DNA of 64,000 nucleotides from Eubacteriales bacterium. Its GTDB lineage: Bacteria; Bacillota; Clostridia; Oscillospirales; CAG-272. Shown here one piece after another: positions 10,775 through 46,559 of the stretch. The notes beneath the pieces were generated by a model. The model ran no database searches, was not told the DNA's origin, and saw only the letters and a program-made list of their open reading frames with translations. Within the stretch, counting starts at the first letter, position 1; every line of letters begins with the position of its first letter. A program made the translations under genes and the position numbers. The stretch lies in assembly GCA_045659365.1 (NCBI GenBank), contig JAZOWT010000087.1:5-64004 (forward strand), read 5' to 3'.

Positions 10775-10786
10775 AAACATATAAAG

Positions 10787-21386: not shown

Positions 21387-21426
21387 ATAATACGTGCACC
21401 TGCGTGTATAATGTCTATTAAAATCA

Positions 21427-29312: not shown

Positions 29313-29322
29313 ACGAGGCTAT

Positions 29323-31373: not shown

Positions 31374-31440
31374 ATTACTTTGATTTATCCTTTCTTTTAA
31401 TATAAATAGATTATATCACTGTATCGATAATTTGTCAATA

Positions 31441-31470
31441 AAAAAGTCGGAGCACCGAAGTGCTCCGACT
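31441..31470 (-). terminator. Rho-independent terminator closing the 13-kb operon
   Basis: GTCGGAGCAC (31446-31455), loop CGAA, GTGCTCCGAC (31460-31469). A T-run follows on the minus strand. Confidence 0.8.
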
Positions 31471-31483: not shown

Positions 31484-32536
31484 TTATCCTACAAGACCGG
31501 AACGCTCAATACCCTGTACAAGGTACTTCTGACAGAACAGGTACATAATTACAAGCGGGAATATGATCATTATTGCCGCGGTATTACGGATAGCTGTCTC
31601 GTACAGCGATCTACCTGCAAAGTTTTCATAGGTAAGTGAGGGAGGGATCTTGCTGAGCAGGTCGGGCATAAGATACATCTTATTTCTACTGATCATGAAG
31701 AAGATCTGAGTGTAGAAGTTATCCGTCCACTGCCAGGAGAAGGAGAAGAGGAAGATCGTGATCATCATAGGTACGGAAAGAGGAATGATGATCGAGAAGA
31801 AGGTTCGGAAGGTGCCCGAGCCGTCAACGTAAGCGGACTCCTCAAGCTCATCGGGAACGCCCTTGAAGAACTGACGCATAAGGTATATGTAAAGTCCGTT
31901 CTTAAAGGCAAGACCGAAGATGGAAAGTATGATAAGCGGCCAGAACGTGTTAGACAAGTCGAGCTGAGCGCCATCAAGGATGATATCCATAATTCCACGG
32001 TAGCTCCAAGCATTGACCTTAAGGAAGTCAAAGTCGGTGAAGTGCTGAATAAGTGACATTCTCATTGTTCTATGAGGAATTACCATCGTAAGGACAACGG
32101 CTGCCATCAAGATCTTATTACCCTTGAACTTGAACTTTGCAAGTCCGTAACCGATAAGGCAGGCGATAAGAGTCTGAATAATAGCACAGAACAGGGAGAG
32201 GAGCGCGGTGTTAAGAAGCGCTTCGAAATATCTGTTCTCTGTTATCATGTACTTATAGATATCAATAGTGAAATGCTTAGGGATAATTGCAACGGTTGCG
32301 TCAACAACGTCTTCCTTGCTCATGAAGGATCCGGCAATCTTAGTTACGAAGGGGAAAATGATTACGTAGGAAACGCCAAGCATGAGTATAAAACGGAACA
32401 GGTTAATGACAGCCTTGATCCAGGTGTTAGAAGCCTTAAGCTTCTGCTTCATTCTTTCCTGCAGAGAGAGCTTGCCTTCGTAATCAACGCGGATCTTATT
32501 TTTGGTTTCTTTAGTTACTGTAGTTTTAGAATCCAT
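31484..32536 (-). CDS. CUT1 carbohydrate ABC transporter permease (MalG/LplC-like), second pair
   Basis: EAA loop EESAYVDGSGTFRTFFSIIIP, six TM segments and a ~40-aa basic N-terminal extension. AAGGAGG RBS. Confidence 0.85.
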   Translation of the reverse strand: MDSKTTVTKETKNKIRVDYEGKLSLQERMKQKLKASNTWIKAVINLFRFILMLGVSYVIIFPFVTKIAGSFMSKEDVVDATVAIIPKHFTIDIYKYMITENRYFEALLNTALLSLFCAIIQTLIACLIGYGLAKFKFKGNKILMAAVVLTMVIPHRTMRMSLIQHFTDFDFLKVNAWSYRGIMDIILDGAQLDLSNTFWPLIILSIFGLAFKNGLYIYLMRQFFKGVPDELEESAYVDGSGTFRTFFSIIIPLSVPMMITIFLFSFSWQWTDNFYTQIFFMISRNKMYLMPDLLSKIPPSLTYENFAGRSLYETAIRNTAAIMIIFPLVIMYLFCQKYLVQGIERSGLVG

Positions 32537-32548: not shown

Positions 32549-33487
32549 TTAATCTCTTCTCTGATAGAATATGAACGACGATGCCACAGCTGCAACGACA
32601 ACAATTATCAGTACAACTATTATGAAGTAAATCCAGGACATCGCAATAGACGATTCGGCATTAACCGTAGCGATATAAGACATAACCGTATTGGTGTCAC
32701 GGGTGAACGCGTCTATAATCGTATATGCGGCATTTACAAGAATCATGGGAGAGATCATCGGGAAGGTTATCTTCCAGAAGGTTTCCCAACCGGTTGCACC
32801 GTCGATGGTACAAGCCTCGTAAATTGCAGGAGAGATAGACTGAAGACCCGCAAGGAATATAAGCATCTGTACACCGGAGTAGTTAATGATGTTATAAATA
32901 TCATTAACCAGACCTACAACGCTTGTTACAATTTCCGATCCGAAGCCCAGCTCGGCAAACATCTCCTGAATATCCATTACGGATACGATATCGTTTGCAG
33001 AGGAGCCGGAACCGTCATCGATACCGCCGGACATAATATTCTGCATAGCGTCGGATGCGTTGATCGTTTCCATAATACCGGTTGCGATAATAACGGGAAC
33101 GAAGAAGATCGCACGGAACGCTGCTCTACCAAGCATCTTCTGGTTAAGAACAACTGCAATAAACAGAGAGAATATGATAACCGCGGGAACCTCAAGCACG
33201 AGCTGCTGAAGTCCGGCAAGAAGTGCGGTAACGAAGTCGGGAGTATCGAATGCGTCCTTGTAGAACTCAAGGCCAACAAACTCGATAACGGTGGTGGGCA
33301 TACCGTTTACCATAGGTCCGTCGATCTCACGGTTAAAGGAGAACCAGATCGAGTCGAGAAGGATGGGAAGGTAAACAAGGAATATACCGAGAATAAAGGG
33401 GAGAGTGAAGAGGTAGCCTGCGCGAGCTCTTCTAGCGTCGAGCGATTTTCTTCTTCTAGGAAGCTTAAGAGAAATTTTCTTATCCAT
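32549..33487 (-). CDS. CUT1 carbohydrate ABC transporter permease (MalF/LplB-like), second pair
   Basis: EAA loop YEACTIDGATGWETFWKITFP. AAGGAGGAG RBS. Confidence 0.85.
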   Translation of the reverse strand: MDKKISLKLPRRRKSLDARRARAGYLFTLPFILGIFLVYLPILLDSIWFSFNREIDGPMVNGMPTTVIEFVGLEFYKDAFDTPDFVTALLAGLQQLVLEVPAVIIFSLFIAVVLNQKMLGRAAFRAIFFVPVIIATGIMETINASDAMQNIMSGGIDDGSGSSANDIVSVMDIQEMFAELGFGSEIVTSVVGLVNDIYNIINYSGVQMLIFLAGLQSISPAIYEACTIDGATGWETFWKITFPMISPMILVNAAYTIIDAFTRDTNTVMSYIATVNAESSIAMSWIYFIIVVLIIVVVAAVASSFIFYQRRD

Positions 33488-33506: not shown

Positions 33507-36500
33507 TTAAATTTTCTTATATTCGTACTTGCCAAGGGTATAAACCTGGCCGTCAATACGAACATTTACAGTGTAGATATTGTAGTTAAGAATGAAGCGA
33601 ACAACACTATCACCCTTCTGGTAGGTAACGATTGCTACCTTGCCGTTGTCAAGAGTGTACTCGGTTGTTGTGTAAACGCTGTCATCCTCAAGACAATCGG
33701 AGAGTGTGTAGAAGCAATAGTTAGATGCATAGTTATCCATAGCACCGATGTTAACGTCAACATTGAGAGCCTCGGTTTCGGAGCCGGGATACTGAGTGGT
33801 GTAGGACTCAATAAGAACTGCGAGCTTAGTAGTGAAAGAATCCTGGTTAAAGACGGACTCAAGATCCTGCTCGGAGAACTGCTTGCCTACAGCATCGTTC
33901 TTGAACTGATTAACGATAGCATCGATATCAAATACTACTCTTACTCTCTCGTCGTACTTGCCCTCTGCCTTAAGCTGTGCGAAGGTTGCATTGATCTTAG
34001 CAACAATGTCAGCCTCAAGGAACTCGAGGTACTCTTTCTCAAGAGCATTGTAGTCGGAGCGCTTTTCACCCTCTTCTCTGCTACGCTCTACGATTACGGT
34101 CTTGTGATCTACGATCTCGTAATCCTGGAGAGAACCGATCTGAGTGTTAAGCTCGTGATAGGTCTTGAGCATATCAGCATACCATGCGTCATAGTTAACA
34201 CCGTAGTACTTGTTGAGCAGCTCATCCTCCTTCATGTAGGAGGTATTCTGATAACAAAGAATGAAGTAAGGTGAGGCACCGTTCTCGATAGAACGAAGGA
34301 TCTCGTAGTCGATAGAGCCGCTGTAGTTGATGGGGCTGCCAGCGTAGTTAACGTGGCCGTGAAGGATCATACCAACGAAGGGTACTGCATAAGACGAGAA
34401 CTGGAAATGGCTGGAGTCAGTAGCAACGTTGAGAATGTGCTCAGCGTACTTAACTGTGTAGATATTTCCGGCATCGAGCATAAGGCTGTATCCGTCGGTG
34501 TTGGCGATTCTGTCAAGAAGCGCGATAACGTCTGCTCTTGCCTGGTCACGGTTAATGGAGTTATCCTTATCGAAGTTGGAGTTGATGTCAGAGCCAAGGG
34601 TAGATGCGGAGAGGTTCTTGATATCGTACTTGGAGTAGTCTTCATGGAAGTCGGAGTAAAGAGAATCAAGTGCATCGGAGGAGATAACGAGAGTGAAGAA
34701 GTTTTCATACTTCTGAAGCACTGCGTTGTACGTCTGCTTGGACGCGTAACGGTTATCAACCATTCGGGATGCGGTATTTCCCTTTCTTATACCGTCGAAC
34801 GCCGAGGTGTTCGTGATATACATGAAGTCGAATTCAGGATATACAGAGAAGTTGATACCCTCCTCTGCAGATACAGAGTTGGTGGTTGCAACAAGATCTC
34901 TAAAGCCATCTTTACCACCGCACTTACGCTCCCACTTTACCTTGGAGGGGTAGGTGTAATACATACCGTCGTTAGCAAAGCCGGTAAGACGGTAGTTGAT
35001 GTTCTTGATGTCACTGATCTTGGTGAGAAGATCCTCATACTCTGCTGCCTGACGGCGGTAGAGCTCCTTATCGGACTCCTCCTCTGCCGCCTCTACGTTA
35101 GCATAGCACTCGTCAATGAGGCTCTGCACGTGCTCGGTAGCATTTGCAAGCTCGTTGTACATAGTTACTACGTCTTCAAAGGTGGTAAGAGGAATGGTAG
35201 TTTCAACAGGGAAAGTAAGGACCTTCTTGAGTATGCTCATAGTACCGAACGTTTCGAGATAAAGAGGAATGTTGCCCTCGCTCATAATCTCAAGCGCACC
35301 GAGAGTTCCATCGGCCTTAAGATAGTTACGGTAGTAGGAAGCCATACCTGCATAGGTAGTGTTGTAGTAGTTGCCGGCGCCATAAAGAGTCGTACCAACG
35401 TTGTCATCAACAAGCATGGTGTATCTGGTTATGTAAGAGCCGGTGTACTTAGACTCGGAAACTATGGTGTAGGTACCGAGAGAACCAACCGAGAGAGTCT
35501 TGGAAAGGTCATACTCGTCGGAGGGATAGGGAGAATAGGATGCGAATACGTTAACAAACTTGTGAGAGGAACCACCGGACGAGAAGTTAAGCTGTGCAAG
35601 AGTTGCACCCTCCTCAAGGATCGCAAAGTAACCGGTCTCGGTCTTTGCACCGGAGGTGGAGCCTGATGCAGCAAGCATATCCGCAGTGGTCTGGTTAGTG
35701 TTAAGCTGAGTTACGAGGCCGTATACGGGCATGGTGATCTGCTGACGGTGTGCACCGGTGATGGTGGAGTAGCAGTAGTCATGGCCGAAAACTTCTGCGT
35801 AAAGGGAGAGGTTGATCTTCTTACCGGTTGCTTCACTGTAGAAGTCGTCGAAGCTGATAACGGTACCGCTACCATCGGGGAAGAAGAAGAAACCGTCCTC
35901 GGACATATCACCGCAACCAAAATACTGGAGGGGAGTTATGTTCTCGAGAGTGTAAACCGTTTCATCAAAAGAAACGGAGTTTGCGGGAAGACGCACACTG
36001 AGAGAGCCATCCTCGTTGAAGGTGTACTCAAGAGCACATCTGAGAACGAGCTTCTGCTCCTCGCTGTGGACGTATCCACACTCTTCCTCATCATCGTACA
36101 TGTCGATGATGTCGTATTCAGGACAAAGAGTCTTGATATAGTTGGAATACTGCTTCTTGATAGAGTTATCAACGGTCATATCGAATACGTATACTGCAGT
36201 GCCGTTTGCGGTGATGGGAAACTGCTTGTTGATAGTAGCAAGAGTCTCCGGATCATCAGCGTACATTGCGGGATCCTTAAGCGAATATGCGTTGGAAAGA
36301 AGCATTATGGGTTTGATGTAGTTGTCGTACAGCTGCTTATTGCTGGTGTAGGTCTGTACCTCAGTGATATAGCCCTGGAGCTTAGTAAACTCGATATAAC
36401 CCTTGTTTTCGATATCGTCATATCTACTGCCTACAAAATCAAATGCGGAATTAGGCTCAACCTCCTCAAACTTATCACCGAGCGCCTCAAGCATGGGAAG

Positions 36501-37100
36501 AATGATGTCGTTGGTGAAATCCTCAGCGGTAATGATACCGGGGAGAAGATATCTTGTTGAGGTATCACCGAGTGTGTAGTTAACACGAAGGCCACCTGCA
36601 ATCTCGGTTACGCTGATCTGACCGTACATAGATGCCCAGTGAACACTGTTGTAGTTGAACTGGTTAGACGAAACGGAGGTCTCGTACATCTTGATGCTGA
36701 TCTGGCTCATGATCTCCTCAGCGAGGTTGCCGGTAATGTTGGTGTATGCGGGATTTACCGGGTTACTGGTGAGGATCTGGCCGGAAAAATTGTTGCGGTA
36801 GTAGAGGAAACCGGTGTAACGGTTTACATATATGGTGTAAAGTCCGTCAACGCTGGTGGAGTGGTCAAGGTAACCAGCCTCAAGCTCGTATGCGAGCATT
36901 TCCTCTGCAGTGTCGAAGTTGTACTTAAGATACACATCTGAGATGTATGTCTTTATCTCGTCGAGAGTCATCGTTGCCTCCGATACGGAGGTGGAGGGGG
37001 AGTAAGCCGCCTCCGCCTCAGTCGCGGGAATCACAACGGAAACCGCCGTGAAAAGCAATACAAGCACCAAAGCAGTCGATAATATTCTTTTAATTTTCAT
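33507..37100 (-). CDS. 1197-aa secreted or membrane-anchored protein of unknown function
   Basis: Signal peptide MKIKRILSTALVLVLLFTAVSVVIPATEAEA and an AGGAGG RBS. I recognise no catalytic motif. From memory it may correspond to DUF5696-type proteins; unverified. Confidence 0.8.
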   Translation of the reverse strand: MKIKRILSTALVLVLLFTAVSVVIPATEAEAAYSPSTSVSEATMTLDEIKTYISDVYLKYNFDTAEEMLAYELEAGYLDHSTSVDGLYTIYVNRYTGFLYYRNNFSGQILTSNPVNPAYTNITGNLAEEIMSQISIKMYETSVSSNQFNYNSVHWASMYGQISVTEIAGGLRVNYTLGDTSTRYLLPGIITAEDFTNDIILPMLEALGDKFEEVEPNSAFDFVGSRYDDIENKGYIEFTKLQGYITEVQTYTSNKQLYDNYIKPIMLLSNAYSLKDPAMYADDPETLATINKQFPITANGTAVYVFDMTVDNSIKKQYSNYIKTLCPEYDIIDMYDDEEECGYVHSEEQKLVLRCALEYTFNEDGSLSVRLPANSVSFDETVYTLENITPLQYFGCGDMSEDGFFFFPDGSGTVISFDDFYSEATGKKINLSLYAEVFGHDYCYSTITGAHRQQITMPVYGLVTQLNTNQTTADMLAASGSTSGAKTETGYFAILEEGATLAQLNFSSGGSSHKFVNVFASYSPYPSDEYDLSKTLSVGSLGTYTIVSESKYTGSYITRYTMLVDDNVGTTLYGAGNYYNTTYAGMASYYRNYLKADGTLGALEIMSEGNIPLYLETFGTMSILKKVLTFPVETTIPLTTFEDVVTMYNELANATEHVQSLIDECYANVEAAEEESDKELYRRQAAEYEDLLTKISDIKNINYRLTGFANDGMYYTYPSKVKWERKCGGKDGFRDLVATTNSVSAEEGINFSVYPEFDFMYITNTSAFDGIRKGNTASRMVDNRYASKQTYNAVLQKYENFFTLVISSDALDSLYSDFHEDYSKYDIKNLSASTLGSDINSNFDKDNSINRDQARADVIALLDRIANTDGYSLMLDAGNIYTVKYAEHILNVATDSSHFQFSSYAVPFVGMILHGHVNYAGSPINYSGSIDYEILRSIENGASPYFILCYQNTSYMKEDELLNKYYGVNYDAWYADMLKTYHELNTQIGSLQDYEIVDHKTVIVERSREEGEKRSDYNALEKEYLEFLEADIVAKINATFAQLKAEGKYDERVRVVFDIDAIVNQFKNDAVGKQFSEQDLESVFNQDSFTTKLAVLIESYTTQYPGSETEALNVDVNIGAMDNYASNYCFYTLSDCLEDDSVYTTTEYTLDNGKVAIVTYQKGDSVVRFILNYNIYTVNVRIDGQVYTLGKYEYKKI

Positions 37101-37117: not shown

Positions 37118-39292
37118 TTAAACTCTGTTTCCGATTTCCGTGAAAATCGAAATTACGAAGGTAACCATCTTGGCAACAAGGCTGAAGAAGAGTACTGCGA
37201 TGAACGCGATAACAAGCATAGCAACGATTGTACCGAAAATAGTTACGATGTTCTTTTTAAGTGAGTAGTCATGAGTTACGAGAGTACCGAAGTACAGAAG
37301 GATACCAACCCATACATAACCTATGGTTGTGATAAGGGTGATCATCGACTGGGAGCTCGTGGTCATGAAGTTGGTGAGTACGGTGGATGCAACAAGGAAG
37401 ATCGGAAGGGGTGCGAGGGAGTAACCAACCGCGATGTAGATATCCTTGAAGCTACCTTCACCCTCGAAGAGGGTTGTAAGACACCAGTTAGATACTACGA
37501 AGAGGAAGAGGATCAAGCATACAACCGCGATTACGGCGAGAATGTTAACCGTTTCTCCTCTGGGGTTAAACGCGTAGCCTTCACCTATCGACTGATAGAA
37601 GAATGCAAGGATAGTGATTGCGATAATGGTAGATGCTGCCTTTACCGAGCCGCGCTTCTCGTGCTTCAAATCCCAGAAGCCGTCGAAGGGGTGGAATACA
37701 AGGTGGAATGAGAACAGAAGCTCTTCCCAATAGGTCTTCTTGCCGACCTTGAGGGCGGTTGCCTTGTTCTTCTTCTTTGCATATCCGAGGAACTTTGCAA
37801 CAAGAACGAGGGCCACGATTGCAAGGATGATGATAGGCAGGAGCCACTTGGAAACGATGTCCTTGTTTGCTGCTGCATGTGCATCAGACCAAACCTTGGT
37901 TTCATACGCGCTCTCGAGATATTCCATCGCGTCAGCGTATTTACCCTGGTTGTAGAGCGCCTTACCTATACCGATATAAGCAAGGTCGAGGTTGTTGTTA
38001 AGGGTAAGAACTCTTTCCCAGCTATCCTGAGCCGAGATGTAATCGTGCTGGTTCTCGTTAGAGAGAGCATGGATAAGTGAGTAGTAGTAATCAGTGGGGT
38101 CATAAACAGTAACCTTAGAGCCGCTGCTTGCAGTATCAAGAGCAACAAGGCGGTAGGTACCGTCAACAACCTGATAGGTTATTGCAGTGAAGGTTGCACC
38201 GTGGCCAAGCTGGTCACCCTTACCGCCAAAGGCGAAGAGGAGGTTACCGTTCTGGTCGTAGGTGAAGAAGCGGGAACGGGACTGGTCAAGAAGAGTCCAA
38301 GTACCCTCTGCACCGAGTGCAACGTCCTTGATCTGAGAAATATCAGCAACGTTAATAACAACTTCTCCACCGGGATCAAAGAAGCCGTTACGGTTCATGA
38401 TCTCCTTACCCTGAGAGTTAAGCTTCTTAACAGGAGAGTAAGTAGCCTTCTTGGTCTTTATAGAGGAGAGCTGATTCTTCTGCTCCTCGGGATCAAGGGG
38501 ATACATAGTGACGTAAACGAATCCGTCGTCGTCAACTGTGATGTTATTGTAGGGGGTAGCAAGCTTAAGCTCCTGAGTAAGACGGTTATCGGCAGACTGG
38601 AACTTAGCCCAGATGATGTCGATAAGGCTGTAGGAAACCTGCTGTGCACCGATGAATCCGGTGAAATCACCGTCACGAGTAAGAACGATTACACCCTCGT
38701 ATGCGGAGGGAGATACGATGAAGATTCGGCCGTAAATATCAACTGCGATCGCAGTGGGGTCGAACGCACCGTCACTAAGTATAGCACTGTCGGGCTTATA
38801 GATAGTTCTTATGTAATTGTACTCGCGGTCGAATACTACGACACGCTTATTACCTGTATCACAGATGTAGATGTAGCTGGAGTTATCGGAGGTCTTGCTT
38901 GCGTCGGTAACGTAAAGACCTGAGGGACTGTTAAAGGTCTGCGCAACGCCGTTCTCGTCAACGTAGCTCTCGATGATTGCGGTTGCTTCGTAGAACTTAT
39001 TGAGAACAACGATACGGTTATTACCCTTGTCGGCGATGTAGAGGTTTGCCTGATCGTCGCAGAAGATATCACTTGCAGTAGCAGAAAGACCTGCAACCGA
39101 GCTAAGCTTGGATATGTTCATATCGATCGAGTCAAAGTCGTCAACTGACGAGTATGCGTGAGGTGACTGAACTACCTCACCGTCGATGGAGTAGGTGTAG
39201 GTATCATAGGGCTCTGCTGCGGAGGAGTAAACGGTGCCGAAAAGCATAACCGCTATGAGTGCCATAATCAATATTTTGGTTATTTTCTTCAT
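37118..39292 (-). CDS. Fusion protein: signal peptide, NHL-repeat beta-propeller, TPR-like segment, TM, Yip1-type polytopic membrane domain
   Basis: NHL-like repeats DKGNNRIVVLNK, DTGNKRVVVFDR and QSRSRFFTYDQNGN. TPR-like GIGKALYNQGKYADAMEYLESAYE. Yip1-like entry FHLVFHPFDGFWDLKHEKRGS followed by 5 TM segments. Confidence 0.75.
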   Translation of the reverse strand: MKKITKILIMALIAVMLFGTVYSSAAEPYDTYTYSIDGEVVQSPHAYSSVDDFDSIDMNISKLSSVAGLSATASDIFCDDQANLYIADKGNNRIVVLNKFYEATAIIESYVDENGVAQTFNSPSGLYVTDASKTSDNSSYIYICDTGNKRVVVFDREYNYIRTIYKPDSAILSDGAFDPTAIAVDIYGRIFIVSPSAYEGVIVLTRDGDFTGFIGAQQVSYSLIDIIWAKFQSADNRLTQELKLATPYNNITVDDDGFVYVTMYPLDPEEQKNQLSSIKTKKATYSPVKKLNSQGKEIMNRNGFFDPGGEVVINVADISQIKDVALGAEGTWTLLDQSRSRFFTYDQNGNLLFAFGGKGDQLGHGATFTAITYQVVDGTYRLVALDTASSGSKVTVYDPTDYYYSLIHALSNENQHDYISAQDSWERVLTLNNNLDLAYIGIGKALYNQGKYADAMEYLESAYETKVWSDAHAAANKDIVSKWLLPIIILAIVALVLVAKFLGYAKKKNKATALKVGKKTYWEELLFSFHLVFHPFDGFWDLKHEKRGSVKAASTIIAITILAFFYQSIGEGYAFNPRGETVNILAVIAVVCLILFLFVVSNWCLTTLFEGEGSFKDIYIAVGYSLAPLPIFLVASTVLTNFMTTSSQSMITLITTIGYVWVGILLYFGTLVTHDYSLKKNIVTIFGTIVAMLVIAFIAVLFFSLVAKMVTFVISIFTEIGNRV

Positions 39293-39304: not shown

Positions 39305-40186
39305 TTAGTCCTTCATACCCGAGGATCCCATCGTTTCAACTATCTGGCTCTGGTTCAGGACGAAGATGAGAATAGGAACTATCATCATGATAACCGTTGC
39401 GGCAGCGCCGGCACCCGAACGTGCGATACCACCGTTAACGATCTGCTGAATAGCGTAGTTGAAGGTTTTAAGCTCCTCTGAGTGGATGTAAATAGATGCA
39501 CCTGTGTTCCAAAGGCCCTTGAAGCACTCGATGATAAGTGTCATCCATGCGGGCTTAACCATGGGCATCGCGATGGTCAGGTAGATTCTGAACTCGCTTG
39601 CACCGTCAAGTCGCGCGGACTCAAGAACGGTATCAGGAACAGATGTTTCCATGAACTGCTTCATAAGGTAAAGACCCATCGTACCTGCCAAGGAAGGAAC
39701 TATGATAGAAAGATAAGTATCGATCCAACCGAAGGAAGAAAGAATGATGAAGTGAGTTACCTGGTTAACAGTAGAGTGGAACATAAGAGACATAACTATG
39801 ATCTGGAAGATAATGTTTCTTCCGGGGAATCTAAGCTTGGAAAGCGAGTAAGCTGCCATCGAAGCGAAGATAAGGTTACCGAGAGTACCGCAAAGAGTAA
39901 TGAATACAGTATTGAATATGTATCTTGAGAAGGGTACCCACGAGTCACCCATAAGGGTTACAAGATCTCTGAAGTTATCAAATGTAGGGCTCTTAACGTA
40001 GAACTTAGGGGGGAACATGAAGAGCTCATCAAGAGGCTTAAGAGACTGAATTACAACGTAGTACATGGGGATGAACATGAACGCGCCCATGAGAATGAGT
40101 ACGAAGGTAATACCGGTATCACCGCCGGCAGAACGGTTAAGGACAACGCGGTGACCGCGTGTTCTGAGCTTTTTCAGTTTTGCCAT
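39305..40186 (-). CDS. CUT1 carbohydrate ABC transporter permease (LplC/MalG-like), first pair
   Basis: EAA loop LESARLDGASEFRIYLTIAMP. I prefer the ATG at 40186 (MAKLKK), 1 nt after the upstream TAA. Confidence 0.85.
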   Translation of the reverse strand: MAKLKKLRTRGHRVVLNRSAGGDTGITFVLILMGAFMFIPMYYVVIQSLKPLDELFMFPPKFYVKSPTFDNFRDLVTLMGDSWVPFSRYIFNTVFITLCGTLGNLIFASMAAYSLSKLRFPGRNIIFQIIVMSLMFHSTVNQVTHFIILSSFGWIDTYLSIIVPSLAGTMGLYLMKQFMETSVPDTVLESARLDGASEFRIYLTIAMPMVKPAWMTLIIECFKGLWNTGASIYIHSEELKTFNYAIQQIVNGGIARSGAGAAATVIMMIVPILIFVLNQSQIVETMGSSGMKD

Positions 40187-40187
40187 A

Positions 40188-41138
40188 TTACTCACCTACC
40201 TTCGCAAGTGCCTTCTTAATAATTATGTTGGAAGAAAGCATGATTATGAAGAGGATAACTGCTATTGCAGAAGCATAACCGATCTCATAACGTGCTCCAC
40301 CATAGTCATCAAGATGGTGCATTATTGTGTGTGCTGCATAATCGACTGAGGGGAATCCGCAAAGCGCGGTAACGACACCACCAAAGCCGAAGGAGTTGGT
40401 GATCGCAAGAACGGCACCGAACATCACCTGAGGACGCATGGTCGGAAGCGTGATGTACCAAAGCTCCTCCCTACGGTTCTTAATTCCGTCAACGGCTGCT
40501 GCCTCGTACATCGAGCGGTCGATGGTCTGGAAGCCCGCGATGAACGACAGGAATGCCGTACCAAGTGAGGTCCAGAGTGCAACCACGATACAAAGACCCA
40601 TTACGTACTTAGCATCCTCGAACCAAAGGATCGGGGTGTTGATAATACCAAGGTCGATAAGAGTTGCGTTTGCCCAACCATAAGAGTCAGAGGAGAACAG
40701 AGTCTTCCAAATAAGGTAAACCTGACCGGAAATGGAGGGAGCGTAGAAGACAAGGGTTACTACGGCACGGATCTTAGGTGGAAGCTCGTTGATGAACCAC
40801 GCGATCAAAAGAGAAAGCAGGTAAGAAACGGGACCGGTAACCGCTGCGAAGATAAGCGTGTTCTGGCACGCGAGGAGGAATATTTCATCCTCCGTGAAAA
40901 GTCGCGTATAGTTTGCAAGGCCCTGCCAGCCGGGCATCTGGAGCATGTTAAAGTCTGTAAAGCTAAGAATGATCGAAAGGAATACAGGGAGAACCGTGAA
41001 AATTATGAAAAGGAGGAAGAAGGGGGCAAGCATAAAGTAAGCTGTCTTGTTCTTTTTCATTTCCTTCCATGTCCACTGAAGCTTCGACATTTCAGAACGC
41101 TTTACAGGACGCTTTGTCGCTGTATTTTCTTGTGACAT
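40188..41138 (-). CDS. CUT1 carbohydrate ABC transporter permease (LplB/MalF-like), first pair
   Basis: EAA loop YEAAAVDGIKNRREELWYITLP. AAAGGAGAA RBS. Confidence 0.85.
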   Translation of the reverse strand: MSQENTATKRPVKRSEMSKLQWTWKEMKKNKTAYFMLAPFFLLFIIFTVLPVFLSIILSFTDFNMLQMPGWQGLANYTRLFTEDEIFLLACQNTLIFAAVTGPVSYLLSLLIAWFINELPPKIRAVVTLVFYAPSISGQVYLIWKTLFSSDSYGWANATLIDLGIINTPILWFEDAKYVMGLCIVVALWTSLGTAFLSFIAGFQTIDRSMYEAAAVDGIKNRREELWYITLPTMRPQVMFGAVLAITNSFGFGGVVTALCGFPSVDYAAHTIMHHLDDYGGARYEIGYASAIAVILFIIMLSSNIIIKKALAKVGE

Positions 41139-41164: not shown

Positions 41165-44100
41165 TTAGTTAGTGGGGTTTCTCTTCTCCGGAGGGATGTA
41201 CTCCTCACCGGTCTGAAGAACGGCTAGACCAAACTCCTGACGCTTACGAGTGATCTCGGAGTTCATCGCATCGATGTACTGGCTGAGAGCCTCAACTGCG
41301 TTAGCGCCGTCATTTACTGTTTCAAGGAAAGCAAACTTCATGTATCTATCCTTAATATAAGAGCCGGGGTAGTTAACGATGGAGGACATGTGCTCCATCT
41401 GGTCTCTGATTGCTGCGTGCTCGCTAGCAGTCCATGAGAGGTAGTCGATTGCATTCTTGTTAGCTGCATTGTACTTTGCAGAGGGACCGATAAGAGCAAC
41501 CATCTTGTTACCGTAGTTACCCTGTACCTTTGCAGAGGTCTGCCACTGGAGGTATGCCCATGCAGCAGCGGTGTTATCACAGCCGTGAAGCATTACGGTA
41601 GCGCTTACGCCGGCAAGAGAGTTGTAGTTGATGATCTCCTTGCCATCCTCGTCGTACTCACCGGTTTCACTTCCGGGCAGCGGGCAGAACTCCCACAAGC
41701 CCTCAATCTCAGTTGCATAAACTGTAAGAGTGTTGTATGTACCAACGTAGTCACCTACAACGATGGGCATCTCACCGGTTCTGAAACGGTTAGGTGCATC
41801 GTAGGATACGGGGAACGAGTAGTCGGTGTAAAGACGGCAAACGAATGCGAACGTATCAAGCGCAACGGTGGAGTCGAGGTCGATTCTGGCACCTGCGTAC
41901 TCAGCGTCATCCTCGTACTTCCAAAGGCTTCCGCCCTTCTGGTAAAGCATGAAGTCGAGTGCTGCAATATAGCTTACACCAACCTGCATGTTGTTAGCCT
42001 GAAGAGTAGGAAGAATGGAGAGAAGGTCAGACCATGTCTCAGGAACCTCCTGACCGAGATCGGCAAGGATGTCCATGCGGTAGAACATCATAGCAAAGCT
42101 CATCTCGGAGGGAACGCCGTATACGATACCGCCAAGCTCGAGAGTATCGGTTGCGGCACTTACGTAGTTATCACCCTGAACCTTATCGAAGGTTTCGGAA
42201 ATGAATGTGAGCTTACCCTTGCTGGGATCAAGTTCGTTGGTGTAAGAATAGGTTTCAGTCTCTTCATCATAATAGATGTAGCTTTCAGTATTGAACACAG
42301 CCTTGGTGGGATCGTTACGGAACGCCTCTACTGCGGGAACGTCGTCATGGGTGCTACCAATACTCATTACCGCGTCACGAATAGCGTAGTTAATAACGTC
42401 AGATGAACCAAGACCCATATATATATCGGGGCCCTTACCTGCAAGGATTGAGGGAAGAAGAGTACCACCGGTAACGAGCTTAAGGTTTACACCGTAGCCC
42501 GTCTGATCGGTAAAGCCTTCCTTCGCGTCAACCATGGTACGCCAGATGTTAGACTGGTCACGACCGGTTGCAAGCCATACGTCAACCGATACGGTGTCTT
42601 CATCAGGCTCAACGGTCAAGCCCATCGCATCGTAATCAATGATGAAAGAATATATGAAAGATCTGATTTCGAACCAAAGTGAGCTGAAGAATCCCGCCTT
42701 TGCCTTCGGGAGATCGTCACTGCTGGTATCGGAGGGAACGATAGAAATGCTATCTACGATAAGAGTTCCCTTCTTGGAGTTGTTGATCCAAGTACCGAGC
42801 GTACCGAGGTACGATTTAAGGTTAGACATATTAGCGGCAACGTCGTCACCGTTATTCTGACCCATTTTATTGAGAAGGATAGCGATAGTTTCAAGTGTAG
42901 CTACGTGAGAACCGTTGGTTCCGCAAAGCTCGATAAGCTCTGCCTGAACGTCCATAAGCTCCTTCGACTGATTGATAAGGTTTACAAGAACCTCAGGAAT
43001 GATAGCGAAGAACTGGTAGTCACGGTATTCGTCAGGAGAAGAGCCGGTAAGCTGAAGAATGGTAAGATAGCTCTCGTTTACAGAGCTAAGAACCGCCTCA
43101 ACTCTCTGGATAAGGTTCTTAAGAGAACCGAGAGAGCACTCAAGGTAAAGAGTGTACTCTACGCCCTTTTCGAAGTAGAACTCAAAGGCATCAATGTTTC
43201 CGTCACCAACGTAGTCGGACTGCCAGTTCTTGTCGTAGTTGAACTGTGCACTGTATGCCTCAACGAAGGGAGCGGTGGGAGTTCCGTCTGCAAGACCGTA
43301 AGAACCGCCGGCAAGCTTGATAGCACGACAGATGTACATACCCTGAAGAGCACTCTGCATGTAACGCATGCTGATCTTGTAAAGACCGGTCTCGGTTACG
43401 GTGAACTTATAAGCAGCCCACTGACCTACGGTGTTATAGCTGTTCTCACCTATTACGTTGTAAACCTGCGCATTGGGGTGAGAGGGGTAGGTAGCGGAAG
43501 AAGAGTTGTCGTTGGTCGCGTAAACCGAGGAGTCGGATACGAGATCGGGGAACTCAGCCTGGATGTTGATGATGCTACCGTTGGTTGCAGCGGTATAGCC
43601 CTTGTCCTCATACTCCTTCTTAACCTCATCGTAAGTGGGGAGGTCAATCTCGGTAGAGGTATCTGCCTCAGCACCCTCGTAGCCATAAGGAATGAGCTCG
43701 ATGGCCTTGATGATAACAGGCTCGCGCTCTGCCTCAAGGGTGATCTGGTGAGAACCGTTGAGAAGATAGAAGGTAAAGAAGCCATCATAGTAACCGGTAG
43801 AGTCCTGGCAGTAGTAGGTATTCCAAGAAGGGATAGCCTGTACGTTAGGAAGCATAGAGTTACCGTTGATATCCTCAGTGATGGTGTAGGTCTTTACAGT
43901 CTTAACGCCATCCTTAACGGTAGTAACCACCTTCTGATAGCCTGCATCGGCATCATCATAGTAGCTGACGTTATAGGAGTCTTCTTCATCAGTCTCGGTA
44001 ACCTCTTCGTTAACGTAGGTGAACTCCCACGACTTATCGAAGGTAATGTTACTGGACTCATCAAAGGGAACCGCGCCGTCTATAAGAAGCTTACGCTCGA

Positions 44101-44611
44101 TAGAGCTTATGCTGCTAGGGCTTCCTACGGGCTTCTGATCGTCGCCACTGATGTTACAGCTGTAATACACGATTTTGATGTAGTAGTATCCAGATGCATT
44201 ATCAGGAAGGGTGAATGTCCAGGTGGACTGTCCGGAAGAGGGCAGGTAAACAGAAGAAGAGCCATTCTCTTCCCCGAAGTTATGCCACAAATCAGGATTC
44301 TTGTCCTTCGCTATATCACAGTCCTGGCTAGCATCGGGCGTCTGCGCGCTGCTACCCGGAATGAGATTATTAACGATGTCGACCTTGATGATTTCTGCAT
44401 TGGGATTGGCGATCACCGCGCCATGCTCTTCGAGATACTCGTCGTAGGACGATACACCTACGAGCTGCTTCATCTCCTCAAGTGAGGAAGCGGTGTCGCG
44501 GTTAGTGCCACGGTCGGTATCAGCCGCCATAGCAGTGATCGCAATCACGCCGAAGAGCGTTGTCGCAGAAAGAATCAGACAAAGGACTTTCTGTAACAAT
44601 GATTTTTTCAT
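41165..44611 (-). CDS. Giant (1148-aa) extracellular solute-binding protein: ~640-aa N-terminal extension with two beta-sandwich (CBM-like) modules plus a C-terminal family-1 SBP domain
   Basis: Signal peptide ending TAMAAD. CBM-like strings STWTFTLPDNASGYYYIKIVYY and WAAYKFTVTETGLYKISMRY. SBP part starts around VDVWLATGRDQSNIW...AGKGPDIYMG. Confidence 0.8.
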   Translation of the reverse strand: MKKSLLQKVLCLILSATTLFGVIAITAMAADTDRGTNRDTASSLEEMKQLVGVSSYDEYLEEHGAVIANPNAEIIKVDIVNNLIPGSSAQTPDASQDCDIAKDKNPDLWHNFGEENGSSSVYLPSSGQSTWTFTLPDNASGYYYIKIVYYSCNISGDDQKPVGSPSSISSIERKLLIDGAVPFDESSNITFDKSWEFTYVNEEVTETDEEDSYNVSYYDDADAGYQKVVTTVKDGVKTVKTYTITEDINGNSMLPNVQAIPSWNTYYCQDSTGYYDGFFTFYLLNGSHQITLEAEREPVIIKAIELIPYGYEGAEADTSTEIDLPTYDEVKKEYEDKGYTAATNGSIINIQAEFPDLVSDSSVYATNDNSSSATYPSHPNAQVYNVIGENSYNTVGQWAAYKFTVTETGLYKISMRYMQSALQGMYICRAIKLAGGSYGLADGTPTAPFVEAYSAQFNYDKNWQSDYVGDGNIDAFEFYFEKGVEYTLYLECSLGSLKNLIQRVEAVLSSVNESYLTILQLTGSSPDEYRDYQFFAIIPEVLVNLINQSKELMDVQAELIELCGTNGSHVATLETIAILLNKMGQNNGDDVAANMSNLKSYLGTLGTWINNSKKGTLIVDSISIVPSDTSSDDLPKAKAGFFSSLWFEIRSFIYSFIIDYDAMGLTVEPDEDTVSVDVWLATGRDQSNIWRTMVDAKEGFTDQTGYGVNLKLVTGGTLLPSILAGKGPDIYMGLGSSDVINYAIRDAVMSIGSTHDDVPAVEAFRNDPTKAVFNTESYIYYDEETETYSYTNELDPSKGKLTFISETFDKVQGDNYVSAATDTLELGGIVYGVPSEMSFAMMFYRMDILADLGQEVPETWSDLLSILPTLQANNMQVGVSYIAALDFMLYQKGGSLWKYEDDAEYAGARIDLDSTVALDTFAFVCRLYTDYSFPVSYDAPNRFRTGEMPIVVGDYVGTYNTLTVYATEIEGLWEFCPLPGSETGEYDEDGKEIINYNSLAGVSATVMLHGCDNTAAAWAYLQWQTSAKVQGNYGNKMVALIGPSAKYNAANKNAIDYLSWTASEHAAIRDQMEHMSSIVNYPGSYIKDRYMKFAFLETVNDGANAVEALSQYIDAMNSEITRKRQEFGLAVLQTGEEYIPPEKRNPTN

Positions 44612-44682
44612 TTGTTTTCCTCCAAATATTCTTTTTCAGCACATGTTATACAATAATAATATAAAAATGCCTATTTGCAACG

Positions 44683-44711
44683 ATTATATCACACGAAACG
44701 GCAAAAGTCAA
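44683..44711 (-). promoter_or_regulatory. Near-consensus sigma-A promoter of the 13-kb operon
   Basis: On the minus strand: TTGACT (44706-44711), 17-nt spacer, TATAAT (44683-44688). Lies about 70 nt upstream of the SBP ATG (RBS GGAGGAA). Confidence 0.6.
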
Positions 44712-45020
44712 TACATCTAATTATATACGGGCGAGCGTTAGATAGGGCTCTAATTTATTAGAATTATGGCATCGCGCACCAAAATGTAAAGTATTATTTA
44801 CATTACGTTTTATGTTTTTTGATTGATTTGAAAATATGTAACTCAAAATCATCATTTTTGCCCCAAAAAATCTGGTTTTTCCTCGTTTTGGCTGCATATG
44901 GTAAATTAGAGTTACTTTTTTAACACTATTTCAAGCAATTTGACACTTGTAAAATGGTTAACAAACATTTTGTGCATAATATACAAAAACTCGATGTTTT
45001 TTTCTACACCAGATTTTTTA

Positions 45021-45077: not shown

Positions 45078-45084
45078 TGGCGCG

Positions 45085-46538: not shown

Positions 46539-46559
46539 TTTTGTAAACTTTCCTTTGCA

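What the first reader, a model, noticed from the sequence alone, without database searches (positions are those of the whole stretch)
33507..37100. 1197-aa signal-peptide protein with no recognisable catalytic motif at the centre of the transporter operon
This is the largest ORF of the operon. It has a clear Sec signal (…VIPATEAEA) and a strong RBS, and it sits between the Yip1 fusion and the second permease pair. Reading the sequence, I found no familiar GH, PL, CE, peptidase or binding-module signature. Its size and position fit an uncharacterised depolymerase or a scaffold. A protein of this length that cannot be annotated, inside a tightly coupled transport operon, is a good candidate for a new enzyme family.
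Basis: inference. Interest (0 to 1): 0.6.

Follow-up and report, generated by a model that had tools for sequence, protein, structure and literature searches.

The report
GH129-like DUF5696 protein in transporter operon
The large "unannotatable" secreted protein belongs to the uncharacterised Pfam family DUF5696, is a distant relative of GH129/GH101 sugar-cleaving enzymes, and is a fixed part of a seven-gene sugar-transporter module found across Firmicutes, but the usual catalytic residues are not in their usual places.

Summary
A 1197-aa ORF (33507-37100, minus strand) with an AGGAGG RBS and a signal-peptide-like N-terminus lies between the NHL/TPR/Yip1 gene and the second permease pair.

It is annotatable. 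It matches Pfam DUF5696 (E 1e-111), a family of about 4,500 clusters at 50% identity. I found no paper that mentions DUF5696.

An AlphaFold model (pLDDT 84.6) best matches the GH129-like enzymes DagB (5OPQ, E 9e-19) and NagBb (5WZN, E 4e-17), then GH101 and GH31. The fold is an N-terminal beta-sandwich plus a (beta/alpha)8 barrel. A sequence bridge also exists: a NagBb fragment scores above the DUF5696 gathering threshold, and a Paenibacillus DUF5696 protein hits NagBb by phmmer.

The protein never occurs alone. The order giant SBP, two permeases, NHL/Yip1, DUF5696, two permeases holds in about 120 loci, from gut Clostridia to Butyrivibrio and Paenibacillus.

In the better-supported alignment, the GH129 nucleophile Asp435 aligns with Ser831 (Ser in 141 of 150 sequences). 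The acid/base Glu478 aligns with Gly878/Asn879.

My best reading is a cell-surface glycan-processing subunit with non-canonical catalysis. A non-catalytic glycan-binding accessory subunit is a serious rival. I rate it a new variant of a known kind, of moderate interest.

The parts
44683..44711 (-). Promoter-like site of the seven-gene operon (TTGACT, 17 nt, TATAAT, with an extended TG)
   Evidence: Scores 11/12 in the consensus scan. It lies about 70 nt upstream of the SBP start, after the mnmA terminator. No Rfam element was found in the leader.
41165..44611 (-). Giant solute-binding protein (1148 aa): signal sequence, two beta-sandwich domains (about residues 120-310 and 345-493), a helical bundle (495-613) and a MalE-like SBP domain (614-1126)
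   Evidence: Pfam SBP_bac_1 matches only residues 692-1030. The AF2 model has pLDDT 79.6. Top Foldseek hits are oligosaccharide-binding proteins (MalE, the beta-1,2-glucooligosaccharide binding protein, GacH) at E about 1e-14.
40188..41138 (-). ABC permease 1 (316 aa, BPD_transp_1)
   Evidence: Pfam match. It is 81-97% identical across 68 loci.
39305..40195 (-). ABC permease 2 (296 aa, BPD_transp_1); overlaps permease 1 by 8 nt
   Evidence: Pfam match. It is 81-98% identical across loci.
37118..39292 (-). Membrane protein with a signal sequence, an extracellular NHL beta-propeller, TPR repeats and a C-terminal Yip1 multi-pass domain (724 aa)
   Evidence: Pfam Yip1 at E 1e-13, plus weaker sub-threshold NHL and TPR matches. 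The gene is split into separate NHL and YIP1 genes in Butyrivibrio.
33507..37100 (-). The finding: a DUF5696 protein of 1197 aa
   Evidence: Pfam PF18952 at E 1.3e-111. AF2 model with pLDDT 84.6 and pTM 0.78. Foldseek hits to GH129-like structures.
37008..37100 (-). Residues 1-31: Sec-type signal peptide or signal anchor (AEA|AYS)
   Evidence: Read from the sequence. Modelled as helix 3-23. AxA motif conserved. Whether it is cleaved was not testable.
36066..36995 (-). Residues 36-345: a small N-terminal beta domain followed by a poorly conserved helical insertion (192-345)
   Evidence: Secondary structure. Conservation is 0.27 over residues 201-300. Part of this region is present in Butyrivibrio.
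35301..36053 (-). Residues 350-600: beta-sandwich domain carrying the family-wide motifs F[YF]PDGSG (Asp409) and YGxDY (Asp441)
   Evidence: Secondary structure. Asp409 and Asp441 are conserved in 147 and 146 of 149 clade members and in 22 and 19(+3 Glu) of 25 distant members.
34083..35285 (-). Residues 606-1006: (beta/alpha)8-like barrel with a 50-residue helical insertion (641-692) and a loop subdomain (758-806)
   Evidence: Secondary structure. Fold matches to 5OPQ, 5WZN, GH101 and GH31. Conserved residues include Glu616, Asn710, Asp758, Asp782/Arg784, Tyr791, Arg851, Asn879, His914, Glu939, Asn952/Lys957 and His999.
34608..34610 (-). Codon TCC = Ser831, the residue aligned with the NagBb nucleophile Asp435
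   Evidence: MAFFT --add and hhalign -glob both give this pairing. The ungapped spacing to Arg851/Asp852 equals Asp435 to Arg455/Glu456. The column holds Ser 141, Ala 6, Asp 1 out of 150. An alternative alignment instead pairs Asp838 with Asp435.
33510..34073 (-). Residues 1010-1197: long helices followed by a C-terminal beta-sandwich
   Evidence: Secondary structure. The helical part is poorly conserved (0.22-0.37) and the final beta-sandwich is conserved (0.60).
32549..33487 (-). ABC permease 3 (312 aa)
   Evidence: Pfam BPD_transp_1. It always follows DUF5696 directly.
31484..32536 (-). ABC permease 4 (350 aa)
   Evidence: Pfam BPD_transp_1. Its position is conserved.
31445..31470 (-). Intrinsic terminator that ends the operon
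   Evidence: An 11-bp stem with 7 GC pairs and a T tract, 13 nt after the permease 4 stop codon.

Best explanation
The ORF encodes an extracytoplasmic member of Pfam DUF5696. This family is a remote branch of the GH129/GH101 glycosidase superfamily, with an N-terminal beta-sandwich followed by a (beta/alpha)8 barrel.

The protein is the glycan-processing subunit of an ancient, self-contained seven-gene module:
- The giant SBP captures an oligo- or polysaccharide at the cell surface. It has beta-sandwich domains in front of a MalE-like oligosaccharide-binding domain.
- The DUF5696 protein is held near the membrane, either by its own N-terminal segment or by the NHL/TPR/Yip1 membrane protein. 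It binds a sugar residue in a GH129-like pocket and cleaves or trims the glycan.
- The two permease pairs import the products.
- The transporters are powered by an MsmX/UgpC-type ATPase encoded elsewhere. In Paenibacillus that ATPase gene lies next to the module.

Catalysis, if it occurs, is not the canonical GH129 Asp/Glu double displacement. It would use other conserved carboxylates (candidates Asp409, Asp441, Glu616, Glu939, Asp758, Asp782). DagB, the GH129-like enzyme, is a precedent: its machinery differs from NagBb's and includes an Asp from the N-terminal domain.

Shown: family membership, fold, homology to GH129, module conservation and operon structure. Inferred: location, substrate class, catalytic activity and the flow of products to the permeases.
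For: - Family: Pfam DUF5696 at 374 bits.
- Fold: AF2 model with pLDDT 84.6. Foldseek gives 5OPQ DagB at E 8.8e-19 with TM 0.60, NagBb at 3.5e-17, GH101 at 5e-8 and GH31 at 8e-8.
- Sequence bridge to GH129: Paenibacillus DUF5696 hits NagBb by phmmer at E 8e-4. NagBb residues 219-358 score 42.9 bits on the DUF5696 HMM, above its cut-off of 25.6. hhalign of the clade against a GH129 orthologue gives probability 77% and E 2e-6.
- Pocket features retained in the alignment: the stacking Trp398 aligns with Tyr791, Asp389 with Asp782, Asp263 with Glu616, His520 with His914 and Arg455 with Arg851.
- Family-wide carboxylates never replaced by amides: Asp409, Asp441, Glu/Asp616 and Glu/Asp939.
- Conserved residues are enriched in barrel strands and their C-terminal loops (23-25% against 9-11% elsewhere).
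- The module order is conserved in 79 GTDB species loci, in 38 metagenome loci of distant members, in other contigs, and in Butyrivibrio fibrisolvens and Paenibacillus cellulosilyticus at 22-24% identity.
- In Butyrivibrio the module follows a histidine kinase, a response regulator and a GH43 gene. In Paenibacillus it follows a ugpC-like ATPase gene.
- No other extracellular enzyme is encoded in the module.
- DagB precedent for divergent catalytic residues: PMC5698469.
Against: - In the better-supported alignment, the canonical nucleophile position is Ser831 (Ser in 141 of 150 sequences). The Glu478 position is Gly878/Asn879, and Asn879 is present in 149 of 150.
- Asp842, which is Asp in 20 of 25 distant members, is Asn in this protein.
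- No acidic residue on the nucleophile strand is invariant.
- hhalign confidence is low in this stretch, and a second MAFFT run gives Asp838 aligned with Asp435 instead. Residue mapping therefore remains uncertain.
- No activity, substrate or expression data exist.
- In this gut lineage the module sits at a fixed core-genome position with no regulator. That is unusual for a nutrient-specific utilisation locus.
Confidence: 0.45

Rival explanations
1. The protein is a pseudo-glycosidase: a catalytically inactive GH129-like ectoprotein that keeps a sugar-binding pocket. It would act as an obligatory accessory or receptor subunit of the transporter, for example delivering ligand to permeases 3 and 4 in place of a second SBP, or scaffolding the SBP and the NHL/Yip1 protein at the permeases.
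For: - Ser831 sits at the Asp435 position, Gly878/Asn879 at the Glu478 position, and Asn842 where most of the family has Asp. Changing the nucleophile to Ser is the classic way to abolish hydrolysis in retaining glycosidases (established knowledge of glycosynthases).
- The stacking platform and other pocket residues are retained.
- The gene always lies directly upstream of the second permease pair, where an SBP gene normally sits. The window operon has only one SBP for two permease pairs.
- The protein is never found outside the module in the loci examined.
- Long, poorly conserved helical insertions (192-345, 641-692, 1010-1103) would suit protein-protein contacts.
- Eukaryotic precedent from established knowledge: the SLC3 heavy chains 4F2hc and rBAT are GH13-like ectodomains that serve as transporter subunits.
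Against: - Four carboxylates are conserved family-wide with only Asp/Glu exchange, which is more typical of catalysis or metal binding.
- Butyrivibrio and Paenibacillus orthologues carry Asp at the 831 position, and many distant members carry Glu at 833. The ancestral protein may therefore have been an enzyme.
- Butyrivibrio has two extra SBP genes after permease 4, so DUF5696 is not needed there as a receptor.
- The residue mapping itself is uncertain.
Confidence: 0.3
2. The protein is a conventional retaining alpha-glycosidase of the GH129 type, with Asp838 as nucleophile and Asp876 as acid/base, trimming alpha-linked Gal- or GalNAc-type residues such as host mucin O-glycan cores or plant alpha-galactosides.
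For: - An alternative MAFFT alignment pairs NagBb Asp435 with Asp838. An ungapped comparison pairs Glu479 with Asp876.
- Both residues are Asp in the window protein and are well conserved among close orthologues (57/69 and 66/69).
- All the closest structural relatives are alpha-glycosidases.
- The lineage is restricted to animal guts.
Against: - Asp838 is Asp in only 91 of 150 sequences and Asp876 in 78 of 150 within the clade. Both are absent in distant members, where position 838 is Leu/Gln/Met. Catalytic residues should be invariant.
- This alignment needs two compensating indels of about 7 residues. The Ser831 alignment is ungapped over 45 residues, with anchors at both ends.
Confidence: 0.12
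3. The module does not forage nutrients. It is a housekeeping system that recycles or remodels a polymer of the cell's own envelope or matrix, with DUF5696 acting on that polymer.
For: - The operon is at a fixed chromosomal position after nifS-nifU-mnmA in about 40 species, and has no regulator.
- Permeases 1 and 2 are 81-98% identical where MnmA is only 47-82% identical.
- The operon has a sigma-70-type promoter and no riboswitch.
Against: - In Butyrivibrio the module is on a 243-kb plasmid beside a sensor kinase, a response regulator and a GH43 gene. In Paenibacillus it is on a megaplasmid. Both settings are typical of accessory carbohydrate utilisation.
- The SBP domain resembles SBPs for dietary oligosaccharides.
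Confidence: 0.1

Closest known systems
GH129 alpha-N-acetylgalactosaminidase NagBb of Bifidobacterium bifidum (PDB 5WZN/5WZP/5WZR)
   Same: Both have an N-terminal beta-sandwich plus a (beta/alpha)8 barrel (Foldseek E 3.5e-17, TM 0.59). Weak but real sequence homology exists through DUF5696. The aromatic platform, Asp389, His520 and Arg455 have aligned counterparts (Tyr791, Asp782, His914, Arg851).
   Different: - Identity is about 10%, and there is no direct phmmer hit.
- The nucleophile Asp435 aligns with Ser831, and Glu478 with Gly878/Asn879.
- The NagBb metal-site residues His320 and Asp322 are Arg and Thr here.
- NagBb is cytosolic, about 630 aa and stand-alone (PMC7232152). This protein is exported, 1197 aa with large insertions, and locked into a transporter operon.
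DagB (ZGAL_3152), the GH129-like alpha-1,3-(3,6-anhydro)-D-galactosidase of Zobellia galactanivorans (PDB 5OPQ)
   Same: It is the best structural match (E 8.8e-19, TM 0.60). It has the same three-domain plan. Like this family, it lacks NagBb's acid/base, and it uses an Asp from the N-terminal domain (PMC5698469). That parallels the invariant Asp409 and Asp441 in the beta-sandwich here.
   Different: DagB keeps the Asp435-equivalent nucleophile (Asp486). It is periplasmic, in a Bacteroidetes carrageenan locus, and 659 residues long. No sequence-level link was tested because its sequence could not be obtained.
GH101 endo-alpha-N-acetylgalactosaminidases (SpGH101, PDB 5A58; EngBF)
   Same: Barrel and beta-sandwich are related (Foldseek E 5e-8). 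GH129 fragments hit both the GH101 and the DUF5696 Pfam models. These enzymes are extracellular.
   Different: The window protein does not match Pfam Glyco_hydro_101 even at E 10. TM-score is only 0.26. GH101 enzymes are wall-anchored and stand-alone.
GH31 alpha-glycosidases (for example E. coli sulfoquinovosidase YihQ, PDB 5OHT)
   Same: Same overall fold class (Foldseek E 8e-8). There are loose motif resemblances: WMADFGE against YPEFDF, and WAGD against xGGN. These come from my own reading and are speculative.
   Different: hhalign of the family against YihQ finds nothing (probability 0.1%). There is no Pfam GH31 match.
CUT1-type ABC sugar importers of Firmicutes that share an MsmX/MsmK ATPase
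   Same: The module has an SBP_bac_1 binding protein and BPD_transp_1 permease pairs. No ATPase gene lies in the operon in the gut lineage, while a ugpC/msmX-like gene is adjacent in Paenibacillus.
   Different: Here there are two permease pairs for one 1148-aa SBP, plus two invariable extra components (NHL/TPR/Yip1 and DUF5696). I found no description of this arrangement.
SLC3 heavy chains (4F2hc/CD98hc, rBAT) of eukaryotic heteromeric amino-acid transporters
   Same: This is an analogy for the rival reading only: a glycosidase-fold (GH13-like) ectodomain without catalytic residues that serves as a transporter subunit (established knowledge).
   Different: They are eukaryotic, partner with SLC7 carriers rather than ABC permeases, and have no demonstrated homology to this protein. 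No physical association was tested here.

Membership tests
Pfam DUF5696 (PF18952) | HMM score above the gathering threshold (25.6 bits) | tested here: met
   374.5 bits, E 1.3e-111, in two stretches that cover the beta-sandwich and the barrel. All 120 listed homologues carry PF18952.
CAZy GH129 | Significant sequence similarity to the catalytic module of a characterised GH129 enzyme (NagBb) | tested here: inconclusive
   There is no direct hit. The clade profile against NagBb gives E 0.9, and hhalign gives probability 77%. The link is transitive only: Paenibacillus DUF5696 at E 8e-4, and a NagBb fragment scoring 42.9 bits on the DUF5696 HMM. The dbCAN/CAZy model was not available.
CAZy GH129 | Beta-sandwich plus (beta/alpha)8 catalytic barrel fold | tested here: met
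   Foldseek to 5WZN at E 3.5e-17 with TM 0.59, and to 5OPQ at E 8.8e-19 with TM 0.60, using a model with pLDDT 84.6.
CAZy GH129 | Catalytic nucleophile Asp435 (NagBb numbering; PMC5698469) | tested here: not met
   Asp435 aligns with Ser831 in MAFFT --add and in hhalign-glob. The alignment is ungapped over residues 412-456 against 808-852. The column is Ser in 141 of 150 sequences. Caveat: a second alignment gives Asp838, which is not invariant.
CAZy GH129 | Acid/base Glu478 (assignment recalled from Sato et al. 2017; the numbering was reproduced in the rebuilt orthologue) | tested here: inconclusive
   Glu478 aligns with Gly878 and Glu479 with Asn879. An ungapped comparison through Butyrivibrio puts Asp876 next to it. 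Asp876 is Asp in 66/69 orthologues but only 78/150 of the clade.
CAZy GH101 | Match to Pfam Glyco_hydro_101 (PF12905) | tested here: not met
   No match at E up to 10. Only fold-level similarity was found (E 5e-8, TM 0.26).
CAZy GH31 | GH31 sequence signature or profile similarity | tested here: not met
   No Pfam GH31 match. hhalign against YihQ gives probability 0.1%. Only fold similarity was found.
Seven-gene DUF5696 ABC module (defined here) | Gene order: giant SBP, permease, permease, NHL/Yip1, DUF5696, permease, permease on one strand | tested here: met
   The window has this order. So do 79 GTDB loci, 38 metagenome loci, plasmids of Butyrivibrio and Paenibacillus and other contigs. Each protein's best match is its positional counterpart.
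Type I ABC importer (CUT1) | A dedicated nucleotide-binding subunit | tested here: not met
   There is no ABC_tran gene in the operon and no MsmX-like gene in the window. A ugpC-like gene is adjacent in Paenibacillus-type loci. A shared ATPase elsewhere is inferred.
Sec-exported protein | Cleavable N-terminal signal peptide | not testable with these tools
   The sequence shows n-, h- and c-regions with AEA|A, and the motif is conserved. The 18-residue h-region could also be a signal anchor. No predictor was available.

The most novel reading that the evidence does not exclude
DUF5696 proteins of this clade are natural nucleophile-less GH129 relatives that no longer hydrolyse glycans. Instead they serve as obligatory extracellular subunits of a dual ABC importer. 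This would be a bacterial counterpart of the glycosidase-like SLC3 heavy chains. Together with the NHL/TPR/Yip1 membrane protein and a giant SBP, they would form a previously undescribed multi-component uptake machine that is conserved from Bacilli to Clostridia.
Probability: 0.25. Interest if true: 0.75.

Novelty: new variant of a known kind. Interest (0 to 1): 0.55.

Why it matters
DUF5696 is large: about 4,500 clusters at 50% identity. In the lineage sampled here it is found in many uncultured gut Clostridia, including a lineage present in ruminant, human and chicken guts. Yet I found no paper that mentions it.

Linking it to GH129/GH101 gives it a structural and mechanistic frame. Showing that it is always embedded in the same seven-gene transporter module turns an orphan ORF into a defined system that can be tested genetically. 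Cultured hosts are available for that: Butyrivibrio fibrisolvens D1 and Paenibacillus cellulosilyticus.

If the protein is active, it would found a new glycoside hydrolase family or subfamily with relocated catalytic residues, and it could reveal a glycan niche of abundant gut bacteria. If it is inactive, it would be a rare bacterial example of a glycosidase fold recruited as a transporter subunit.

Tried and rejected
- **NCBIfam scan:** no family matched.
- **PDB sequence searches:** the full protein, its core region and the orthologue profile gave only chance hits.
- **hhalign of the family against E. coli GH31 YihQ:** nothing found. No GH31 homologue was present in the fetched loci to build a profile from.
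- **Model coordinates:** these are not exposed, so I could not do a superposition or a pocket analysis.
- **Profile search:** the first attempt failed because the profile had 1201 positions. It was repeated with a trimmed set.
- **Domain fusions:** very long family members (1,900-2,500 aa) carry no extra Pfam domain that would hint at a substrate.
- **Rfam:** no riboswitch or leader element in the window.
- **Literature:** searches for DUF5696, PF18952, IPR043751, and YIP1 together with sugar ABC terms found nothing relevant. The NagBb structure paper is not held.
- **Retrieving full-length NagBb:** the protein database returned only fragments. I rebuilt an 84%-identical orthologue from a frameshifted contig instead.
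- **Polar invariant residues in C-terminal barrel loops:** the enrichment was not significant on its own (Fisher p 0.24).
- **Asp838/Asp876 as the canonical catalytic pair:** considered, and ranked low because neither residue is conserved across the family.
- **MscS as part of the operon:** rejected. A terminator and a perfect promoter separate it, and it is absent from most loci.

Full report
**Observation.**
- The ORF at 33507-37100 (minus strand) is real. It starts with ATG, encodes 1197 codons and ends in TAA.
- It is the longest gene of its operon. AGGAGG lies 8 nt upstream of the start.
- The N-terminus (MKIKRILSTALVLVLLFTAVSVVIPATEAEA|AYS) looks like a Sec signal. Its AxA motif is conserved in 69 orthologues. 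I could not run a signal-peptide predictor, and the 18-residue hydrophobic core could also act as a signal anchor.
  - a 1148-aa protein with an SBP_bac_1 domain;
  - two BPD_transp_1 permeases;
  - a 724-aa NHL/TPR/Yip1 protein;
  - the ORF itself;
  - two more permeases.
- Gaps between the genes run from -8 to 26 nt.
- A TTGACT-17-TATAAT promoter lies at 44711-44683 and a strong terminator at 31470-31445. These delimit a seven-gene transcription unit.
- The downstream MscS gene has its own perfect consensus promoter and is not part of the unit.
- No Rfam element is present anywhere in the window.

**Family.**
- The claim that the protein cannot be annotated does not hold. It matches Pfam DUF5696 (PF18952) with 374.5 bits and E 1.3e-111.
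- NCBIfam gives nothing, and direct PDB sequence searches give nothing.
- The family is large. A profile of orthologues finds 4,465 clusters at 50% identity with E<=1e-3, and 1,738 with E<=1e-30.
- The closest relatives are all about 1,200 aa and are labelled 'hypothetical'. They come from uncultured Clostridia in ruminant hindgut, human (Hadza) and chicken gut metagenomes.
- No paper in the library mentions DUF5696, PF18952 or IPR043751.

**Fold.**
- An AlphaFold2 model built on 69 sequences has mean pLDDT 84.6 and pTM 0.78. Its parts are:
  - residues 36-190: a small beta domain;
  - residues 192-345: a poorly conserved helical insertion;
  - residues 350-600: a beta-sandwich;
  - residues 606-1006: a beta/alpha barrel with a 50-residue helical insertion and a loop subdomain after the strand at 750-757;
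  - residues 1010-1103: long helices;
  - the end of the protein: a beta-sandwich.
- Foldseek against the PDB gives the following best matches:
  - DagB of Zobellia, the GH129-like 3,6-anhydro-D-galactosidase (5OPQ): E 8.8e-19, target TM 0.60;
  - GH101: E 5e-8;
  - GH31 YihQ: E 8e-8;
  - GH36, GH27, GH13 and GH66 further down.
- The protein is therefore not a purely structural repeat protein. It has the beta-sandwich plus barrel architecture of alpha-glycosidases.

**Sequence bridge to GH129.**
- The window protein does not hit NagBb directly.
- A distant DUF5696 protein from Paenibacillus cellulosilyticus does hit it, at phmmer E 8e-4 for 5WZQ and 0.012 for 5WZN.
- NagBb residues 219-358 score 42.9 bits on the Pfam DUF5696 model, above its gathering cut-off of 25.6. 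The same fragment scores weakly on Glyco_hydro_101.
- Fragments of NagBb orthologues in the protein database carry precomputed PF18952 and PF12905 hits.
- DUF5696 and GH129 are therefore homologous in sequence as well as in fold.

**Catalytic residues.**
- I rebuilt an orthologue 84% identical to NagBb from a frameshifted contig. Its numbering reproduces three published residues:
  - the stacking Trp398 (PMC8106489);
  - the nucleophile Asp435 (PMC5698469), in the motif AYLD435VF;
  - Glu478 (assignment from my memory of Sato et al. 2017), in SSSE478EV.
- *Preferred alignment.*
  - Adding this sequence to the family alignment with MAFFT and aligning it with hhalign -glob (probability 77%, E 2e-6, low local confidence) gave the same result.
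  - Asp435 aligns with Ser831, Glu478 with Gly878, and Glu479 with Asn879.
  - This alignment is ungapped from NagBb 412 to 456 against window 808 to 852.
  - It is anchored at both ends: Pro412 against the family's conserved Pro808, and Arg455-Glu456 against the invariant Arg851 and Asp/Glu852.
- *Occupancy of these columns in 150 family members.*
  - Position 831: Ser in 141, Ala in 6, Asp in 1. The single Asp is the Butyrivibrio protein.
  - Position 879: Asn in 149.
- *Alternative alignment.*
  - A second MAFFT run, on a mixed set with 25 distant members, pairs Asp435 with Asp838 instead.
  - That alignment needs two compensating indels of about 7 residues.
  - Asp838 is Asp in only 91 of 150 clade members and is Leu, Gln or Met in distant members.
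  - I prefer the Ser831 mapping but hold it with only moderate confidence.
- *Conclusion on the canonical pair.* Under either alignment, no acidic residue on or just after the nucleophile strand is invariant. Asp842, which is Asp in 20 of 25 distant members, is Asn in this protein.
- *What is conserved family-wide.*
  - Asp409, in the motif F[YF]PDGSG;
  - Asp441, in YGxDY;
  - Glu or Asp at 616, at the end of the first barrel strand, aligned with NagBb Asp263;
  - Glu or Asp at 939;
  - Arg851, Asn879, Tyr881, Pro907-Phe908, His914 (aligned with NagBb His520), Asn925 and His999.
- *Pocket counterparts.* NagBb's Trp398 platform aligns with the conserved Tyr791, and Asp389 with Asp782.
- *Distribution within the barrel.* Conserved residues are enriched in barrel strands and their C-terminal loops (23-25% against 9-11% elsewhere). 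The enrichment of polar residues alone is not significant.
- *Untested.* I could not inspect the model coordinates, so spatial clustering of these residues is untested.

**The module.**
- DUF5696 does not occur alone in any locus I examined. The gene order was always giant SBP, permease, permease, NHL/Yip1, DUF5696, permease, permease. It was seen in the following places:
  - 79 loci from GTDB species representatives, wherever the contig allowed;
  - other metagenome contigs of more distant members;
  - 38 metagenome loci of very distant members at 20-30% identity;
  - two cultured organisms at 22-24% identity, Butyrivibrio fibrisolvens D1 plasmid pNP243 and a Paenibacillus cellulosilyticus megaplasmid.
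- Each of the seven proteins finds its positional counterpart as its best match. This includes the whole length of the giant SBP and of the NHL/Yip1 protein.
- The flanking genes differ between hosts:
  - In Paenibacillus-type loci a ugpC/msmX-like ATPase gene precedes the module.
  - In Butyrivibrio a histidine kinase, a response regulator and a GH43 gene precede it, and two ordinary SBP genes follow it.
  - In the gut lineage of the window no ATPase gene or regulator is nearby. The module sits after nifS-nifU-mnmA in about 40 species.
- The giant SBP was modelled at pLDDT 79.6. It has two beta-sandwich domains and a helical bundle in front of a MalE-like domain. The best structural relatives of that domain bind oligosaccharides.

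**Interpretation.**
- The most economical reading is a cell-surface machine that captures, processes and imports a glycan. DUF5696 would be its only candidate enzyme.
  - *For catalysis:* the fold, the homology to GH129, the conserved carboxylates, the Asp or Glu on the nucleophile strand in distant members, and the DagB precedent. DagB is a GH129-like enzyme whose catalytic residues differ from NagBb's and include an Asp from the N-terminal domain.
  - *Against catalysis:* Ser at the nucleophile position, Gly-Asn at the acid/base position and Asn842 in this clade.
- These substitutions keep a second reading alive: a non-catalytic, glycan-binding accessory subunit, possibly serving the second permease pair. 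Its gene sits where an SBP gene would normally be.
- I give the readings the following confidence:
  - non-canonical enzyme: 0.45;
  - pseudo-enzyme: 0.30;
  - canonical Asp838/Asp876 glycosidase: 0.12;
  - housekeeping role in envelope recycling: 0.10.
- The substrate is unknown. All the closest structural relatives cleave alpha-linked (axial) glycosides, and the Butyrivibrio context (GH43) points to plant glycans. Neither clue is decisive.

**Novelty and verdict.**
- The protein belongs to a catalogued but uncharacterised Pfam family that is a divergent branch of a known glycosidase superfamily. I therefore rate it a new variant of a known kind, not categorically new.
- Three things appear to be unreported:
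  - the link between DUF5696 and GH129;
  - the apparent loss or relocation of the catalytic pair;
  - the strict seven-gene module with two permease pairs and an NHL/TPR/Yip1 protein.
- Interest is moderate (0.55). The target is well defined, widespread and testable, and cultured hosts are available. No function has been shown.

Noticed in passing
window 39305-41138 (permeases 1 and 2) compared with loci L001-L083: Permeases 1 and 2 are 81-98% identical across species in which the housekeeping enzyme MnmA is only 47-82% identical and DUF5696 only 37-84% (tblastn best-HSP identities). That is unusually strong constraint for sugar ABC permeases. Permeases 3 and 4 are much less conserved (56-94%).
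   Followed up: partly
window 30492-31373 and 31410-31438; L090:403-876: An MscS-type mechanosensitive channel gene with a perfect TTGACA-17-TATAAT promoter follows the operon terminator directly. MscS is next to the module in 11 of 83 loci, and an MscL gene lies near it in L090. This may be coincidence.
   Followed up: no
window 41165-44611, protein residues 1-613: The N-terminal 600 residues or so of the giant SBP have no Pfam match. They are modelled as two beta-sandwich domains (about 120-310 and 345-493) and a four-helix bundle (495-613). This extension is conserved as far as Butyrivibrio and Paenibacillus (25-28% identity over about 1,000 aa). Its fold relatives were hidden behind the SBP hits in the fold search.
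   Followed up: partly
window 44612-45084: A 470-nt AT-rich intergenic region lies between the mnmA terminator and the SBP start. The promoter is only about 70 nt from the start codon, and no Rfam family matches. The role of the remaining roughly 350 nt is unknown.
   Followed up: partly
window 45085-47738 and loci L001-L083: The module sits directly downstream of nifS-nifU-mnmA in about 40 species of this lineage. That is a fixed core-genome position, in contrast with its plasmid location in Butyrivibrio and Paenibacillus.
   Followed up: partly
window 18480-21806 (minus strand): A 1108-aa protein consists almost entirely of BspA-type leucine-rich repeats (LRR_5, 681 bits, 8 stretches). It is probably a surface adhesin.
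   Followed up: no
window 54063-58475 (minus strand): A 1470-aa PolC-type DNA polymerase III alpha subunit with PHP, an inserted exonuclease and finger domains. It confirms that the window comes from a Bacillota chromosome.
   Followed up: no
window 26740-30429 (plus strand): A second, unrelated ABC transporter of the ribose type (Peripla_BP_4, a double ABC_tran ATPase and BPD_transp_2). It converges on the MscS gene and is conserved next to the module in L001/L002.
   Followed up: no
L091 (Butyrivibrio fibrisolvens pNP243) 9198-11293: In Butyrivibrio the NHL propeller and the YIP1 membrane domain are two separate, overlapping genes. In the window and in Paenibacillus they are fused. The two parts therefore function together but need not be covalently linked.
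   Followed up: no
L093:94-1721: The GH129 (NagBb-like) gene on this low-coverage Bifidobacterium-type contig is broken by a frameshift near codon 415. The protein-database entries for it (P0389, P0392) are consequently fragments with wrong C-termini.
   Followed up: yes
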